This document shows, in pieces, positions 60,203-62,994 of a stretch of DNA of 64,000 nt (position 1 is the stretch's first letter; every line of letters starts with the position of its first letter). The notes under the pieces were generated by a model. That model had not been told where the DNA came from. It worked only from the letters and a program-made list of their open reading frames with translations, and did not search any database. A program made the position numbers and the translations under genes. This DNA comes from a virus, in the IMG/VR virus record IMGVR_UViG_3300036985_001509, positions 27,447 through 91,446 of that record; one strand, written 5' to 3'.

Positions 60203-60502
60203 ATGAGTAATCAATTCTTCTACACTCGTAAAGAGTTAAAGAGTGGTACACCAGAAAACCCTGTGTACACTGAATTCCGTGACAGTTTTAACATCAACAA
60301 GGTGATTCGTTCTGTAGCCATTGAGGACGGACGTGTAATGATCTTATTGGATGACTTGCATGAGCGTGCTCAAGAGGTGCCTGAGGTTGATCCCCGTACC
60401 AACAAGGTGAAAGGTGTCAAGCGCCAAAGAAACACATTCCAGTCTGAAATCTATCTTGAAGGAGAAGACGTAAACCGTTTTTACAATGCAACATCAATCT
60501 GA
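60203..60502 (+). CDS. Hypothetical protein
   Basis: 99 aa ORF. Confidence 0.65.
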   Translation: MSNQFFYTRKELKSGTPENPVYTEFRDSFNINKVIRSVAIEDGRVMILLDDLHERAQEVPEVDPRTNKVKGVKRQRNTFQSEIYLEGEDVNRFYNATSI

Positions 60503-61265
60503 ACTACCATTCATCAGTTGTAAGTGCATCACCTACGGTAGGGTGGACACGCTTGAGGAAAGTTTAAACGCTTTCCTCAAGCAGGACTACCCTGCTGATA
60601 AGTGTGAGCTCATTATAGTTAATGACTACCCCATGCAGACATTAGTTTACAATCACCCTCAGGTGAAGGTGTTTAATGTGAGTCACACATTTAGTACCAT
60701 CGGTGATAAGGAAAACTTTGCTACAAAGCTTTGTGATGGGGATATCATTTGCCAATGGGATGATGATGATGTGGCTGCATCTTGGCATTTAAAGAATGTA
60801 GCTAAATACTTTACAGATGACGTAAACATCCTACACTGGAATCCAGGAGTGTTCTTTAATGGTGATAGCATCACTAGCATCACCTGGATAGGTAACTCTG
60901 GTATTGTATTCAGGAAGTCTGCATGGGAAGCTATTGGTGGTCATCCCATCGAGAATGCTGGATACGATATGACATTCATCGAGCGCCTACATGCTTACGG
61001 AGGAAGACTATTTGCTGCTCCTCCCAAGGAAGAAGCTAGCTGGTTCTATATGTGGGGAGGACGTGGTTATCACATGTCTGGTCAAGGACACGATAAACCT
61101 GGTCAACCTAATGTAATACAGAGACACAGCACTCACATTGAAAATCTTAGGCAGCAAGGTAAGATACCTACAGGAGATGTGCTTCTGGTTCCTAGATTTA
61201 AACATGATTACGATCAAATGGTAAAAGACTATGTTAGTAGACTTCATAATCCCAACGTACAGTAG
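60486..61265 (+). CDS. Glycosyltransferase family 2 (GT-A)
   Basis: PFISCKCITYGR, KQDYP, ELIIVND, IICQWDDDD. Confidence 0.85.
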   Translation: MQHQSELPFISCKCITYGRVDTLEESLNAFLKQDYPADKCELIIVNDYPMQTLVYNHPQVKVFNVSHTFSTIGDKENFATKLCDGDIICQWDDDDVAASWHLKNVAKYFTDDVNILHWNPGVFFNGDSITSITWIGNSGIVFRKSAWEAIGGHPIENAGYDMTFIERLHAYGGRLFAAPPKEEASWFYMWGGRGYHMSGQGHDKPGQPNVIQRHSTHIENLRQQGKIPTGDVLLVPRFKHDYDQMVKDYVSRLHNPNVQ

Positions 61266-61797
61266 ACCTGCTCCACTCAGATGCATGATTGCATCTCTTA
61301 TAGCCCAAACCAATCCTAGTTGGAGAGCTAATGTAGTAATTGACAATCCTGAGGATGTAGATAATGTAAAGCTTGTAGAGAGTTTTGCTGATGACAGAAT
61401 CAGATGGACCAAGATGGACAAGCGCTACAATGACTGGGGACACACTCCCCGTGAGTTTGGTAAGCAGATGAGTGAGTGTCAGTATGTTATCATGACTGGT
61501 GATGACAACTATTACACTCCCAACTTTGTACATGAGTTAGAGCTCCGAACAGAGTCCAATCCTGGTATGGTATACTGGGACATGGTTCATTCGCACTTTC
61601 AGTATGCTTATTTCAAATGTGTCCCTGCAGGGGGTCAGATTGATATGGGAGCTTTTGCTACACGCAGAGATTTAGCCCAGCAGATCTATCTAGGTGTAGA
61701 ATATGCTGCTGACGGATGGTTCGTAGAACAGTTTAAACAGAAGTTTCCAGGAGAAAACATTGCCAGAATAGATAAAGTATTATTCGTACACAACTAA
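61231..61797 (+). CDS. Glycosyltransferase family 2 (GT-A)
   Basis: FIIPTYSR, SLIAQT, VVID, YVIMTGDDNYY, YAADG. Confidence 0.85.
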   Translation: MLVDFIIPTYSRPAPLRCMIASLIAQTNPSWRANVVIDNPEDVDNVKLVESFADDRIRWTKMDKRYNDWGHTPREFGKQMSECQYVIMTGDDNYYTPNFVHELELRTESNPGMVYWDMVHSHFQYAYFKCVPAGGQIDMGAFATRRDLAQQIYLGVEYAADGWFVEQFKQKFPGENIARIDKVLFVHN

Positions 61798-61801
61798 TTT
61801 T

Positions 61802-62365
61802 ATGGGAAGACTTACAGACATTGCCAATCGTCAGAAAACTGATAAAGGCACAGAACATTACGAAAAGCACGGATACACAGAGGTTTACGACAGATACATC
61901 CCTGAGACAGGTCATTGTAAGCTGCTAGAGATAGGTATCTGGCATGGAGACTCTCTCAGAATGTGGAATGAATACAACCACGAGATAGAAATCCATGCGT
62001 TGGATATAGATAAGGATGTCAAGCAGTATATTGAGCAGCCTAATCCCTACCACATCTATATTGGGGATCAAACTGATGAGTCTTTGATAAACTATATTGC
62101 TAAAGAGGCTGCTCCTTTCAACTTTATTATTGATGACGGTAGTCATCAAGGTGACCATATTGTAGCATCGTTTAAACTTCTGTGGCAACACATCAAACCT
62201 GGAGGGTACTACTTCATTGAGGATCTGCACGCAGGACATGCTAATAGACCAGTAACTATTGAGAGAATCAAAAGATGGCTAGGAGAGAGTCCTAATTCTA
62301 TGACCCTAATGGCTAACGATAAGCTACTCATCATCAAGAAACCATGGGAATCCCCGTTATCATAA
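61802..62365 (+). CDS. Class I SAM-dependent methyltransferase, sugar O-methyltransferase-like
   Basis: TDK...HGYTEVYD, LLEIGIWHGDSLRMW, GDQ, IIDDGSH, IKPGGYYFIEDL (MycE-like pattern). Confidence 0.8.
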   Translation: MGRLTDIANRQKTDKGTEHYEKHGYTEVYDRYIPETGHCKLLEIGIWHGDSLRMWNEYNHEIEIHALDIDKDVKQYIEQPNPYHIYIGDQTDESLINYIAKEAAPFNFIIDDGSHQGDHIVASFKLLWQHIKPGGYYFIEDLHAGHANRPVTIERIKRWLGESPNSMTLMANDKLLIIKKPWESPLS

Positions 62366-62994
62366 ACAACAGAAACCTTCTCACATGGCCCAAGGCTATG
62401 GTGGAGAGGATACAGCGCTACGATGGTGTAGGGGAAATAGTTATTGTAGACAATGAGTCTACCTATCCCCCCTTACTCGAGTGGTATGATACTAATCCCT
62501 GTAGGATAGAGCGCCACGGGAATGTGGGAATTGCAGCCCCCTGGATAAAGCAAACTGTTGCTGGTTTAAACAGCAAGTTCTACGTGGTTACAGACCCAGA
62601 TATGGGGCTTGAAAACACACCCGATGATACATTGCTCTATCTGCAGGACAAAATGAACAGCCTGAACATAGATAAGATAGGGCTGGGACTAGACTGGCAG
62701 AGAGTGGAAGACAAGTCTCCGTATTACAAGCGCCTTCATTTGTATGAGAAAGACAGGTGGGAGAAATCCCCTGTTCAAGATGGTGTATACATGGAAGTGC
62801 AGATAGACACTACGTTTGCCTTATATAGACATCCTGTGTATTTCATAGGAGGAGCATCCACTACATTTCCCTATGTAGCTAGACACTATCCCTGGGAGTT
62901 TTCTCTGGAGGAGGCCAGGGCTAATGAGGAATTCATGTACTATATGAATCACGCAACAAGCGCTTCTTCCTACAAAACTTTAATACGCCCATGA
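62344..62994 (+). CDS. GT-A fold glycosyltransferase
   Basis: IPVIINNRN, IVIVDNESTYPPL, YVVTDPD (DxD), IDTTFALY. Confidence 0.75.
   Translation: MGIPVIINNRNLLTWPKAMVERIQRYDGVGEIVIVDNESTYPPLLEWYDTNPCRIERHGNVGIAAPWIKQTVAGLNSKFYVVTDPDMGLENTPDDTLLYLQDKMNSLNIDKIGLGLDWQRVEDKSPYYKRLHLYEKDRWEKSPVQDGVYMEVQIDTTFALYRHPVYFIGGASTTFPYVARHYPWEFSLEEARANEEFMYYMNHATSASSYKTLIRP

What the first reader, a model, noticed from the sequence alone, without database searches (positions are those of the whole stretch)
60486..62994. Candidate phage-encoded virion O-glycosylation system: 3 glycosyltransferases + sugar O-methyltransferase, paired with mucin-like virion proteins
Seen: four overlapping or abutting genes (GT2, GT2, SAM methyltransferase with the DDGSH pattern of sugar O-methyltransferases, GT-A) with no signal peptides, so cytoplasmic. 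Three outward-facing virion proteins carry long Thr/Ser tracts: muzzle (3652-4400), fibre (13203-13533) and auxiliary capsid tail (16221-16290). Known: Pro/Thr/Ser tracts are classic O-glycan acceptors, and phage-encoded GTs that glycosylate virion proteins are described in mycobacteriophages. Inference: the cassette builds a short methyl-capped glycan on the poly-Thr tracts during assembly, giving a crAss-like virion a mucin-like coat. No base-hydroxymethylase or sugar-nucleotide synthesis gene was seen in this window, which argues modestly against DNA glucosylation and implies use of host NDP-sugars.
Basis: partly seen in the sequence, partly recalled or inferred. Interest (0 to 1): 0.88.

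Follow-up and report, generated by a model that had tools for sequence, protein, structure and literature searches.

The report
Variable sugar-enzyme island, crAss-like phage
An uncultured crAss-like phage carries three sugar-adding enzymes and a sugar-methylating enzyme that most likely extend and cap sugar chains on the threonine-rich stretches of its own particle proteins; only mycobacterial phages have been shown by experiment to sugar-coat their particles.

Summary
Four tightly packed, soluble genes at 60486-62994 encode GT2, GT2, a MycE/TylE-like sugar O-methyltransferase and a third GT-A enzyme. Three late proteins carry long poly-Thr tracts at the stated coordinates.

- In 13 near-complete relatives this locus is a hypervariable island of 1-4 glycosyltransferase and methyltransferase genes, while poly-Thr tracts are universal. 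The specific four-gene cassette therefore does not co-vary with the tracts.
- All 13 relatives also carry a conserved 338-aa late gene (GT338) flanked by Thr-tailed mini-proteins. Earlier work in this scan, on other DNA, proposed it as a peptide O-glycosyltransferase. It falls in the unassembled part of this record.
- In distant crAss-like lineages, homologues of GT2a, p216 and the methyltransferase lie directly downstream of GT338 and Thr-tailed proteins, inside the tail operon.
- Fourteen GenBank crAss-like or related phages have neither tracts, GT2 nor GT338.
- No pyrimidine hydroxymethylase or C5 DNA methylase was found, and the enzymes have no membrane segments. This argues against DNA glycosylation and a Gtr-type mechanism.

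Best reading (about 0.65): the island is the variable elongation and capping tier of a virion O-glycosylation system. No sugar has been measured, and I could not confirm that GT338 has a glycosyltransferase fold.

The parts
60203..60502 (+). p99: conserved 99-aa gene that precedes the island. Function unknown; probably a core replication-module gene rather than part of the system.
   Evidence: Present in 14/14 genomes and always directly upstream of the island. No Pfam or PHROG hit.
60486..61265 (+). GT2a: soluble GT-A (GT2) glycosyltransferase and the most widely kept island enzyme.
   Evidence: PF00535 at 7.8e-8. AF2 pLDDT 95.1 with a GT-A fold. WDDDD motif with invariant D93 and D94. Orthologues at 55-83% identity in 10 of 13 relatives. 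A copy at 63% identity sits in the tail operon of the distant lineage G048.
61231..61797 (+). GT2b: second soluble GT2 glycosyltransferase.
   Evidence: PF00535 at 7.1e-8 and phrog_29879 'galactosyl transferase' at 3.8e-5. The nearest solved relative is the rhamnosyltransferase RmlT (8bz4, 7e-6). Present only in genomes with the four-gene allele.
61802..62365 (+). MT: SAM-dependent sugar O-methyltransferase, MycE/TylE-like.
   Evidence: PF13578 at 3e-9 and phrog_21658 at 6e-26. PDB 3ssm at 5e-18 and 8ia9 at 1e-12. Among GenBank phage records its tblastn matches are mostly in mycobacteriophages (13 of 18), and in some of those records it lies next to a GT gene. In phage Omega it lies directly after the major head protein and a GT.
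62344..62994 (+). p216: third glycosyltransferase, a GT-A fold with no sequence-family assignment.
   Evidence: AF2 pLDDT 86.5. Foldseek hits to GT-A enzymes at E about 1e-5 and TM about 0.5. Invariant D36 and DxD at 84-86. In G048 the homologous domain is fused to an FkbM methyltransferase.
3458..8833 (-). Muzzle-like 1791-aa virion protein. Its Thr/Ser-rich tracts near the C-terminus (nt 3652-4400) are candidate acceptors.
   Evidence: Translation. phrog_37948 at 1e-108. Lies next to CrAss_Ring_1. Homologues in Cellulophaga and Flavobacterium phages and in Lbo-JY46 belong to genomes with no T6 run.
12454..14043 (-). 529-aa fibre-like late protein with about ten PP-T7/8 repeats (nt 13203-13533); candidate acceptor.
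   Evidence: Translation and T6 pattern hits. No PHROG or PDB homologue. It occupies the position after the exonuclease gene where G048 carries its GT module and Thr-rich proteins.
16218..17405 (-). 395-aa late protein, three genes downstream of the major capsid gene, with a C-terminal Thr tail (nt 16221-16290); candidate acceptor.
   Evidence: Translation. The tail, with its conserved ...TLIP end, is kept in 12 of the 14 genomes compared (this record included), replaced by a plain T-run in G012, and lost in G020. Its identity as an auxiliary capsid protein is not shown.
8839..11024 (-). Tail ring proteins 1 and 2. These are context and establish that the phage is crAss-like.
   Evidence: PF24228 at 1.4e-11 and PF25702 at 7e-17.
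19293..20846 (-). Crass-type major capsid protein (context).
   Evidence: PF23898 at 1.4e-26; phrog_11589.

Best explanation
The four genes are one allele of a hypervariable glycan-tailoring island. The island belongs to a phage-encoded, cytoplasmic system that O-glycosylates poly-threonine tracts on exposed particle proteins: the muzzle-like protein, fibre-like proteins, a capsid-region protein tail and small Thr-tailed mini-proteins.

Proposed order of events (all steps inferred):
1. A conserved late enzyme (GT338), which is not in this window, attaches the first sugar to Thr.
2. The soluble GT-A enzymes GT2a, GT2b and p216 extend the chain using host NDP-sugars.
3. The MycE/TylE-like methyltransferase O-methylates a sugar, probably the terminal one added by p216.

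Different relatives carry different enzyme sets at this locus, so related phages would display different glycans on the same Thr scaffolds.

Shown here: the enzyme identities and folds, the tracts, the island's variability, the gene linkages and the absence of DNA-modification partners. Not shown: the substrate, the order of steps and the presence of any glycan.
For: 1. Enzymes. There are three GT-A glycosyltransferases and a sugar O-methyltransferase. All are soluble and the genes are tightly packed, overlapping or 4 nt apart.

2. Acceptors. T>=5 runs occur in 2-10 ORFs in each of the 14 genomes compared. All 58 such ORFs of at least 150 aa lie on the late strand, which holds 70% of coding capacity. 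None lies in the five giant proteins (877-4346 aa) encoded at the 5' end of this record.

3. System-level co-occurrence. In the clade, 14/14 genomes have tracts plus at least one GT at this locus. Among GenBank crAss-like or related phages, 0/14 have T6 runs, 0/14 have PF00535 and 0/14 have GT338.

4. GT338. It is present in 13/13 near-complete relatives and is flanked by mini-proteins ending in T7-8. Around 80 GT338-like genes from other lineages, 69 have a T>=6 ORF within 500 bp. Twenty-one have homologues of this island's enzymes within 6 kb, always on the same strand, and 11 of these are directly adjacent.

5. G048. Its ring, muzzle and exonuclease proteins are only 24-31% identical to this phage's. 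Its tail operon reads: Thr-tailed 408-aa protein, 486-aa protein with 9 T-runs, 96-aa Thr-tailed mini-protein, GT338-like, GT2a (63% identical), p216-like GT fused to an FkbM methyltransferase, exonuclease, Ring2, Ring1, muzzle.

6. Within Thr-tract-bearing IMG/VR records, GT338 and GT2 co-occur: 5/7 against 6/39, p=0.005.

7. Precedent. Cluster O mycobacteriophages have three tandem GT genes plus an O-methyltransferase that modify capsid and tail tube (PMC11600133). In phage Omega, the homologue of this MT follows the major head protein and a GT.
Against: No biochemical evidence exists.

GT338's status as a glycosyltransferase was not confirmed here:
- no Pfam hit;
- no PDB profile hit;
- no profile similarity to GT2a;
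- no PF23452 hit;
- only a weak language-model lead.

GT338 is also absent from this record, presumably because it lies in the missing 21%.

The nearest solved relatives of GT2a and GT2b act on teichoic acids or polysaccharides, not on proteins.

Across IMG/VR, PF00535 is not significantly enriched in PPT7-bearing records: 11/46 against 5/38, p=0.27. Six of 10 complete PPT7-bearing genomes have no PF00535 gene.

The clade-versus-outgroup contrast amounts to few independent events. The number of island genes does not track the amount of tract. G020 has the full cassette but lost the capsid-region protein's tail.

In this clade the island lies on the replication strand, not in the structural operon.
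Confidence: 0.65

Rival explanations
1. Host surface-glycan modification. The soluble GT2 enzymes and the methyltransferase would act on host lipid-linked or polymer-bound glycans (O-antigen, capsule or teichoic-acid-like polymers) during infection, for example to block superinfection or to stop progeny sticking to debris. The Thr tracts would be unrelated linkers.
For: The nearest solved relatives are wall-polymer or polysaccharide enzymes: TarS, TarP, RmlT, heparosan synthase and WrtF. Relatives carry a GT11 fucosyltransferase-type gene and a GT32-like gene, which are typical of O-antigen and capsule loci. TarP is itself encoded by a prophage (my own knowledge). In this clade the island sits at the end of the replication module.
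Against: Homologues of the same enzyme families lie in the tail operon directly after Thr-tailed proteins and GT338 in other lineages, always on the same strand. No flippase, polymerase, membrane anchor or NDP-sugar gene was found. The GT genes track the tracts across crAss-like phages.
Confidence: 0.12
2. Protein glycosylation of something other than the particle. The enzymes would modify only the small Thr-tailed mini-proteins, or other non-structural or released proteins, which might act as glue, decoy or carrier molecules. The muzzle, fibre and capsid-region tracts would stay bare.
For: GT338 is flanked specifically by mini-proteins of 45-105 aa that are little more than a head plus T7-8 tails. 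No evidence places these mini-proteins in the virion.
Against: The same T7-8 and VAP/PP spacing occurs in the large structural proteins. The conserved C-terminal tail on the capsid-region protein resembles the C-terminal sites reported for mycobacteriophage capsids (PMC12619734).
Confidence: 0.1
3. DNA base glycosylation, with the sugar then methylated, to protect phage DNA from restriction, as in T-even phages and others.
For: Phage glycosyltransferases commonly hypermodify DNA (reviewed in PMC12619734). The island lies next to nucleotide-metabolism genes: RNR, dUTPase and PhoH.
Against: No thymidylate-synthase-type hydroxymethylase was found in 0/14 genomes, 12 of them at least 90% complete. 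No C5 DNA methylase was found in 0/14. No TET/JBP match was found, but that search's control also did not ring, so it is inconclusive. GT11-type and GT32-type enzymes and a sugar O-methyltransferase are not known DNA-modifying enzymes (my own knowledge). The enzymes are linked to the tail operon in other lineages.
Confidence: 0.03
4. The tracts and the enzymes share a lineage by chance. Poly-Thr would be a plain flexible linker typical of this environment's proteins, and the island an auxiliary gene set with an unrelated small-molecule or host-protein target.
For: PPT7 tracts occur in at least 118 stretches of viral DNA in IMG/VR, including giant-virus bins and complete phage genomes without PF00535. 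The broad PF00535 enrichment is not significant.
Against: Island-type GT and MT genes repeatedly lie in the same operon as GT338 and Thr-tailed proteins across lineages. GT338 and GT2 co-occur within tract-bearing records, p=0.005.
Confidence: 0.07

Closest known systems
Mycobacteriophage virion glycosylation (Che8, Corndog and other Cluster O phages, Myrna; Freeman et al. 2023, known here through PMC11600133, PMC12363180 and PMC12619734)
   Same: Both have phage-encoded tandem glycosyltransferases plus an O-methyltransferase; Cluster O has three GTs and one O-MT. Targets there are capsid and tail proteins, with glycans at C-termini, and here a capsid-region protein carries a conserved C-terminal Thr tail. 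Relatives of this MT lie next to GT genes in mycobacteriophages, and in Omega directly after the major head gene.
   Different: There is no detectable sequence kinship between GT2a and any GenBank phage protein. The Che8 GT is only a generic GT-A fold match (rank 45, TM 0.52). The phage type (crAss-like) and presumed host phylum differ. The acceptors here are long mucin-like poly-Thr tracts and mini-proteins. The enzyme set is hypervariable between close relatives. The candidate initiator (GT338) belongs to a different, unnamed family. Nothing has been measured.
Chlorovirus PBCV-1 capsid glycosylation enzyme A064R, with GT, GT and methyltransferase domains (from my own knowledge; not checked with tools here)
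   Same: Virus-encoded, cytoplasmic GT-A domains are coupled to a sugar O-methyltransferase that caps the glycan of a particle protein. A p216-like GT fused to a methyltransferase occurs in G048. GT2a's language-model neighbours include giant-virus GT2 clusters.
   Different: In PBCV-1 the glycan is N-linked to the major capsid protein of a eukaryotic virus. Here O-linkage to Thr tracts is inferred. No sequence homology was tested.
MycE / TylE macrolide-sugar 2'-O-methyltransferases (PDB 3ssm, 8ia9)
   Same: The methyltransferase core aligns at E=5e-18 and 1e-12. It has the DDGSH motif and matches PF13578.
   Different: The phage protein has 187 aa and aligns only to the C-terminal catalytic part (residues 200-327 of 419) of MycE; its 187 aa leave no room for the remaining N-terminal part. 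The substrate is unknown and is unlikely to be a macrolide.
Wall-teichoic-acid glycosyltransferases TarS, TarP and RmlT (GT2, GT-A)
   Same: They are the best solved sequence and fold relatives of GT2a, GT2b and p216. All are soluble GT-A enzymes with a DxD motif that act on a repetitive polymer in the cytoplasm.
   Different: Similarity is confined to the GT-A core (13-17% identity). The trimerisation and acceptor domains are absent. The gene context points to protein acceptors.
Serine-rich-repeat adhesin glycosylation in Gram-positive bacteria (GtfA/B initiator plus variable GT-A extenders; from my own knowledge)
   Same: The logic is the same: a conserved cytoplasmic initiator acts on a low-complexity Ser/Thr tract, followed by a strain-variable set of extending glycosyltransferases.
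   Different: The initiator family differs (GT-B GtfA/B). That system is bacterial and needs an accessory Sec export system. No homology was tested.

Membership tests
Pfam PF00535 / CAZy GT2-type GT-A glycosyltransferases | Profile match above the curated cut-off | tested here: met
   GT2a scores 32.9 bits and GT2b 33.0 bits against a cut-off of 23.3. p216 has no match.
Pfam PF00535 / CAZy GT2-type GT-A glycosyltransferases | GT-A Rossmann-like fold with an Asp-x-Asp metal and nucleotide-sugar site | tested here: met
   GT2a: model pLDDT 95, Foldseek E=1e-12 to 6p61, RmlT and TarS, invariant D93 and D94. p216: pLDDT 86.5, hits at E about 1e-5 and TM about 0.5, invariant D84-x-D86.
MycE/TylE-type sugar O-methyltransferases (Methyltransf_24) | Sequence homology of the catalytic domain | tested here: met
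   3ssm at 5e-18 and 8ia9 at 1e-12. PF13578 scores 38.1 bits against a cut-off of 26.3.
MycE/TylE-type sugar O-methyltransferases (Methyltransf_24) | Methylation of a sugar hydroxyl on a glycoside substrate | not testable with these tools
   Needs an enzyme assay.
Phage virion glycosylation system (mycobacteriophage type) | Phage-encoded glycosyltransferase(s), often with an O-methyltransferase | tested here: met
   The gene content is the same as in Cluster O phages.
Phage virion glycosylation system (mycobacteriophage type) | Glycans demonstrated on capsid or tail proteins | not testable with these tools
   Needs glycoproteomics of virions.
Phage virion glycosylation system (mycobacteriophage type) | Homology to the essential enzymes Che8 gp110 or Corndog gp38 | tested here: not met
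   tblastn of GT2a against 50,697 phage records gave no match. The Che8 GT is only a generic fold match, rank 45. This is therefore an analogue, not a member of that enzyme lineage.
DNA-glycosylating phage systems (T4 type, or TET/5hmC type) | A phage enzyme that makes a hydroxymethyl-pyrimidine: a TS-family hydroxymethylase, or a C5-methylase plus TET | tested here: not met
   PF00303 in 0/14 and PF00145 in 0/14 genomes, with controls ringing. PF12851 in 0/14, but its control did not ring, so that result is inconclusive.
Gtr-type serotype conversion (GtrA, GtrB, GtrV) | Membrane-anchored polyprenyl-phosphate GT with a flippase and a periplasmic transferase | tested here: not met
   No hydrophobic segment in any island protein of 14 genomes. 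Only a marginal phrog_22739 hit at 0.009.
Crassvirales-like phages | Crass-type capsid, tail ring proteins 1 and 2, and muzzle-like protein in synteny | tested here: met
   PF23898, PF24228 and PF25702; phrog_37948. The portal is only about 25-29% identical to classified members, so this is a distant relative.
GT338 (phrog_4417) as a peptide O-glycosyltransferase | Glycosyltransferase fold or family match | tested here: inconclusive
   No Pfam, PDB-profile or GT2a-profile match. It has an invariant C-D-S-D motif. One language-model neighbour cluster carries PF23452 in 10% of members.

The most novel reading that the evidence does not exclude
An abundant environmental clade of crAss-like phages builds a mucin-like glycan coat in two tiers. 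A conserved peptide O-glycosyltransferase seeds poly-Thr scaffolds on the muzzle, fibres, a capsid-region protein and mini-proteins. A rapidly exchanged island of extending and capping enzymes (GT2, GT11, GT32-like and two methyltransferase types) then gives each strain its own virion 'glycotype', much as O-antigen loci do for bacteria. If so, glycan diversity on the particle is itself under diversifying selection, for example for receptor or mucus binding, or for escape from grazers, enzymes or host surface defences.
Probability: 0.35. Interest if true: 0.85.

Novelty: new variant of a known kind. Interest (0 to 1): 0.68.

Why it matters
Virion glycosylation in phages has been shown by experiment only in actinobacteriophages. 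If this holds, self-glycosylation is a property of a very abundant environmental crAss-like group: more than 469 portal relatives in IMG/VR, with 332 GT338-like loci in other lineages.

It would also mean the glycan is built by a swappable enzyme island, so close relatives would differ in surface chemistry while keeping the same protein scaffold. That affects how host range, particle stability, adhesion and immune or grazer recognition of such phages should be interpreted.

It offers a compact, soluble enzyme toolbox for cytoplasmic mucin-type O-glycosylation of simple T7 tags. It also makes the question directly testable without a cultured host, by co-expressing a mini-protein with the enzymes in E. 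coli.

Tried and rejected
- DNA-level search of the cassette against GenBank phages gave no match. tblastn of GT2a against the same collection also gave none.
- PDB sequence searches of the three tract-bearing proteins gave nothing useful. The 'auxiliary capsid' and 'fibre' labels therefore stay positional.
- Cassette-level co-occurrence with tracts is rejected. Relatives with one GT (G002, G012), or with different enzymes (G003, G011), have equal or more tract.
- The broad IMG/VR test of PF00535 against PPT7 tracts with a random 14-mer control was not significant (p=0.27; complete genomes p=0.34).
- Attempts to confirm that GT338 is a glycosyltransferase all failed: Pfam, PDB profile, hhalign against GT2a, and the PF23452 genome search.
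- The TET/JBP search was uninformative because its control did not ring.
- The GT2a family (2,764 representatives at E<=0.001) includes many multi-domain GT, sulfotransferase and GT9-like fusions in Chloroflexota and in unnamed metagenomic proteins. This gave no functional clue.
- The promoter and terminator scan of the island showed nothing above shuffles.
- Literature searches found no paper on glycosylation of crAss-like virions. Freeman et al. 2023 and Pyle et al. 2024 are not held.
- Host identity was not determined. The closest cultured relative is Leptolyngbya phage Lbo-JY46, at only about 30% identity.

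
Full report
**What is in the window**

The window is the last 64 kb of a 91,446-bp IMG/VR record that CheckV rates 79% complete. It is a distant crAss-like phage. 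It has a Crass-type major capsid protein, tail ring proteins 1 and 2, a muzzle-like protein, a portal and a large terminase. Its portal is only about 25-29% identical to classified Crassvirales and to the closest cultured phage, Leptolyngbya phage Lbo-JY46.

The four genes of the finding exist as described. They are co-directional and either overlap or are 4 nt apart.

- GT2a and GT2b pass the PF00535 cut-off.
- The third gene matches Methyltransf_24 and the solved sugar 2'-O-methyltransferases MycE and TylE, at 5e-18 and 1e-12.
- The fourth gene, p216, has no sequence-family hit. It folds confidently as a GT-A enzyme with an invariant DxD.
- GT2a also gives a very confident GT-A model, pLDDT 95.
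- None of the island proteins in 14 genomes has a membrane-type hydrophobic segment.

The poly-Thr tracts are real and sit at the stated coordinates. The T6 codon pattern occurs 34 times on the late strand and never in the reversed control.

**The locus is a hypervariable island**

The phage belongs to a large environmental clade: more than 469 portal relatives, with the best 80 at 81-96% identity. I fetched 13 near-complete relatives whole. The gene p99 precedes the locus in all of them. What follows differs:

| Genomes | Island content |
|---|---|
| This record and five relatives | GT2a, GT2b, MT, p216 |
| G002 | GT2a only |
| Three relatives | GT2a, a Methyltransf_24-type methyltransferase (divergent in two of them), a 178-180-aa weakly GT2-like protein |
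| G010 | GT2a, a p216-like GT2, and an inserted NUMOD3 endonuclease-like gene |
| G003 | A GT32-like enzyme and another GT2 |
| G011 | A GT11 (fucosyltransferase family) enzyme, a GT2 and an MT |
| G012 | One unrelated GT2 |

Among 24 other IMG/VR loci that carry p216 at 57-91% identity, the four-gene order recurs at 47-93% identity. The methyltransferase is missing from three of them.

**The tracts are universal in the clade and restricted to late genes**

Every one of the 14 genomes compared has 2-10 ORFs with T>=5 runs. All 58 such ORFs of at least 150 aa lie on the late strand, which holds 70% of the coding capacity. In this record none lies in the five giant proteins (877-4346 aa) encoded at the 5' end of the record.

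The C-terminal Thr tail of the 395-aa capsid-region protein, with its conserved ...TLIP end, is kept in 12 of the 14 genomes. G012 has a plain T-run instead, and G020 has lost the tail.

Tract amount does not follow the number of island genes. G003 and G011 have the most tract and lack the four-gene allele. It holds at the level of 'some GT at this locus'.

**Outgroups**

Fourteen GenBank crAss-like or related phages were tested: gut crAss phages, Azobacteroides, Cellulophaga and Flavobacterium phages, and Lbo-JY46. They have no T6 run, no PF00535 gene and no GT338. Several of them carry homologues of the muzzle-like protein. This is a clean contrast, but it represents few independent events.

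**A lead from earlier notes changed my reading**

Earlier notes of this scan describe a 338-aa soluble enzyme flanked by Thr-tailed mini-proteins in relatives of this phage and on other DNA. They proposed it as a peptide O-glycosylating enzyme. I checked what I could.

- The gene (GT338) is present in all 13 near-complete relatives at 60-84% identity. It lies 3-6 kb beyond the island on the late strand.
- It is always flanked by mini-proteins of 45-105 aa ending in T7-T8 runs.
- It has an invariant C-D-S-D motif.
- It is absent from this record, whose contig ends 1 kb after the island. It most likely lies in the missing 21%.
- I could not confirm that it is a glycosyltransferase. There was no Pfam hit, no PDB profile hit, no profile match to GT2a and no PF23452 match. 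The only support is a weak language-model neighbour.

**The link between the island and the tracts**

*Tract-bearing records across IMG/VR.* Among 46 IMG/VR records of at least 18 kb that carry a PP-T7 tract, GT338 relatives occur in 7. They occur in 0 of 20 random records and 0 of 14 outgroup phages (p=0.019). Five of those seven also carry a PF00535 gene, against 6 of the other 39 (p=0.005).

*G048.* One of these records, G048, is a crAss-like fragment. Its ring, muzzle and exonuclease proteins are only 24-31% identical to this phage's, against 66-95% for the ring proteins within the clade. Its tail operon reads, on one strand:

1. a 408-aa protein with a Thr tail
2. a 486-aa protein with nine T-runs
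3. a 96-aa Thr-tailed mini-protein
4. GT338-like (phrog_4417)
5. GT2a, 63% identical to the window's
6. a fusion of a p216-like GT2 domain with an FkbM methyltransferase
7. exonuclease
8. Ring 2
9. Ring 1
10. muzzle-like protein

.

In the window the same backbone runs muzzle, Ring 1, Ring 2, exonuclease, poly-Thr fibre. G048 therefore carries the enzyme module exactly between the exonuclease and the Thr-rich fibre genes.

*Eighty GT338-like loci from other lineages*:
- 74 have a T>=6 ORF within 6 kb, and 69 within 500 bp.
- 21 have homologues of this island's enzyme families (GT2a type, p216 type, GT32-like, the G012-type GT2, and the p216-like GT fused to an FkbM methyltransferase) within 6 kb. 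All are on the same strand as GT338.
- 11 of those 21 are directly adjacent to GT338.
- 10 loci also hold a homologue of the island's methyltransferases (the Methyltransf_24 type or the G048 GT-methyltransferase fusion).

The same toolbox that forms the variable island in this clade is thus physically attached to GT338 and its Thr-tailed neighbours elsewhere.

**Alternatives**

*DNA glycosylation* is unlikely. No thymidylate-synthase-type hydroxymethylase and no C5 DNA methylase was found in any of 14 genomes, 12 of them at least 90% complete, and the controls rang. The TET search was uninformative.

*A Gtr-type mechanism* is excluded by the lack of membrane segments.

*Modification of host surface polymers* remains the main rival. 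The nearest solved relatives act on teichoic acids and polysaccharides, and GT11 and GT32 types are typical of O-antigen loci. It does not explain the tail-operon placement or the linkage to GT338.

*Sugar supply.* Five genomes (this record and four relatives) lack epimerase/dehydratase-family and nucleotidyltransferase-family genes, so host NDP-sugars would be used.

*Caveat.* The broad PF00535 enrichment among tract-bearing records is not significant (p=0.27). Six of ten complete tract-bearing genomes lack PF00535. Thr tracts alone therefore do not imply a GT2.

**Comparison with known systems**

The closest experimentally known system is mycobacteriophage virion glycosylation. In Cluster O phages, three tandem glycosyltransferases and an O-methyltransferase modify capsid and tail tube (PMC11600133; PMC12363180; PMC12619734).

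In the GenBank phage collection this MT's tblastn matches are mostly in mycobacteriophages (13 of 18 records), in some of them next to GT genes. In Omega the MT homologue lies directly after the major head protein gene and a GT.

The glycosyltransferases themselves show no specific kinship to the mycobacteriophage enzymes. This is an analogue with the same gene content, not a member of that enzyme lineage. I found no paper describing glycosylation of crAss-like virions.

**Verdict**

The most likely function is the variable extension and capping tier of a virion O-glycosylation system (confidence about 0.65). The initiating enzyme probably lies outside the window.

The scan has met the GT338/poly-Thr theme before on other DNA. 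What this case adds is the hypervariable tailoring island and its link to that system. It is a new variant of a known kind. All functional steps remain inferred.

Noticed in passing
L444:10455-11228 (G048) compared with window 60486-61265: GT2a is 63% identical between two crAss-like lineages whose ring, muzzle and exonuclease proteins are only 24-31% identical. This suggests horizontal exchange of the enzyme gene between distant phages.
   Followed up: partly
L140:7452-8075 (G010): A 208-aa gene with a NUMOD3 motif (weak, E=0.012) is inserted between the 94-aa gene and GT2a in one relative. It may be a homing endonuclease sitting in the island.
   Followed up: no
G020:36647-37705 (within L181), the orthologue of window 16218-17405: G020 has the full four-gene cassette, but its orthologue of the 395-aa capsid-region protein has lost the Thr tail (ends ...PTFNPLVP). 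G012 has a plain T8 tail instead of the conserved ...TLIP end.
   Followed up: no
G018:17822-18340 (within L162): A second, divergent GT2b-like gene (26% identity) lies on the late strand of one relative, outside the island.
   Followed up: no
window 63190-63771 (- strand): This 193-aa protein is very basic and rich in Lys, Arg and Gly. It is convergent with the island, has only a marginal dockerin-like hit, and is poorly conserved: partial matches at 34-72% identity in three relatives.
   Followed up: no
window 3458-8833 and PP438436.1 83444-87721: The closest cultured relative by portal and muzzle-like protein is Leptolyngbya phage Lbo-JY46, whose host is a cyanobacterium. Other homologues are in Flavobacterium and Cellulophaga phages. 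The host of this clade is not settled.
   Followed up: partly
IMG/VR loci L248, L258, L265, L271: The PP-T7 codon pattern also occurs in several giant-virus metagenome bins (GVMAG contigs). Poly-Thr tracts of this form are therefore not confined to phages.
   Followed up: no
L120:4545-4832 and its orthologues in 8 of the 14 genomes: A conserved gene of about 96 aa sits between p99 and the first GT in 8 genomes, though not in this record. Its function is unknown.
   Followed up: no
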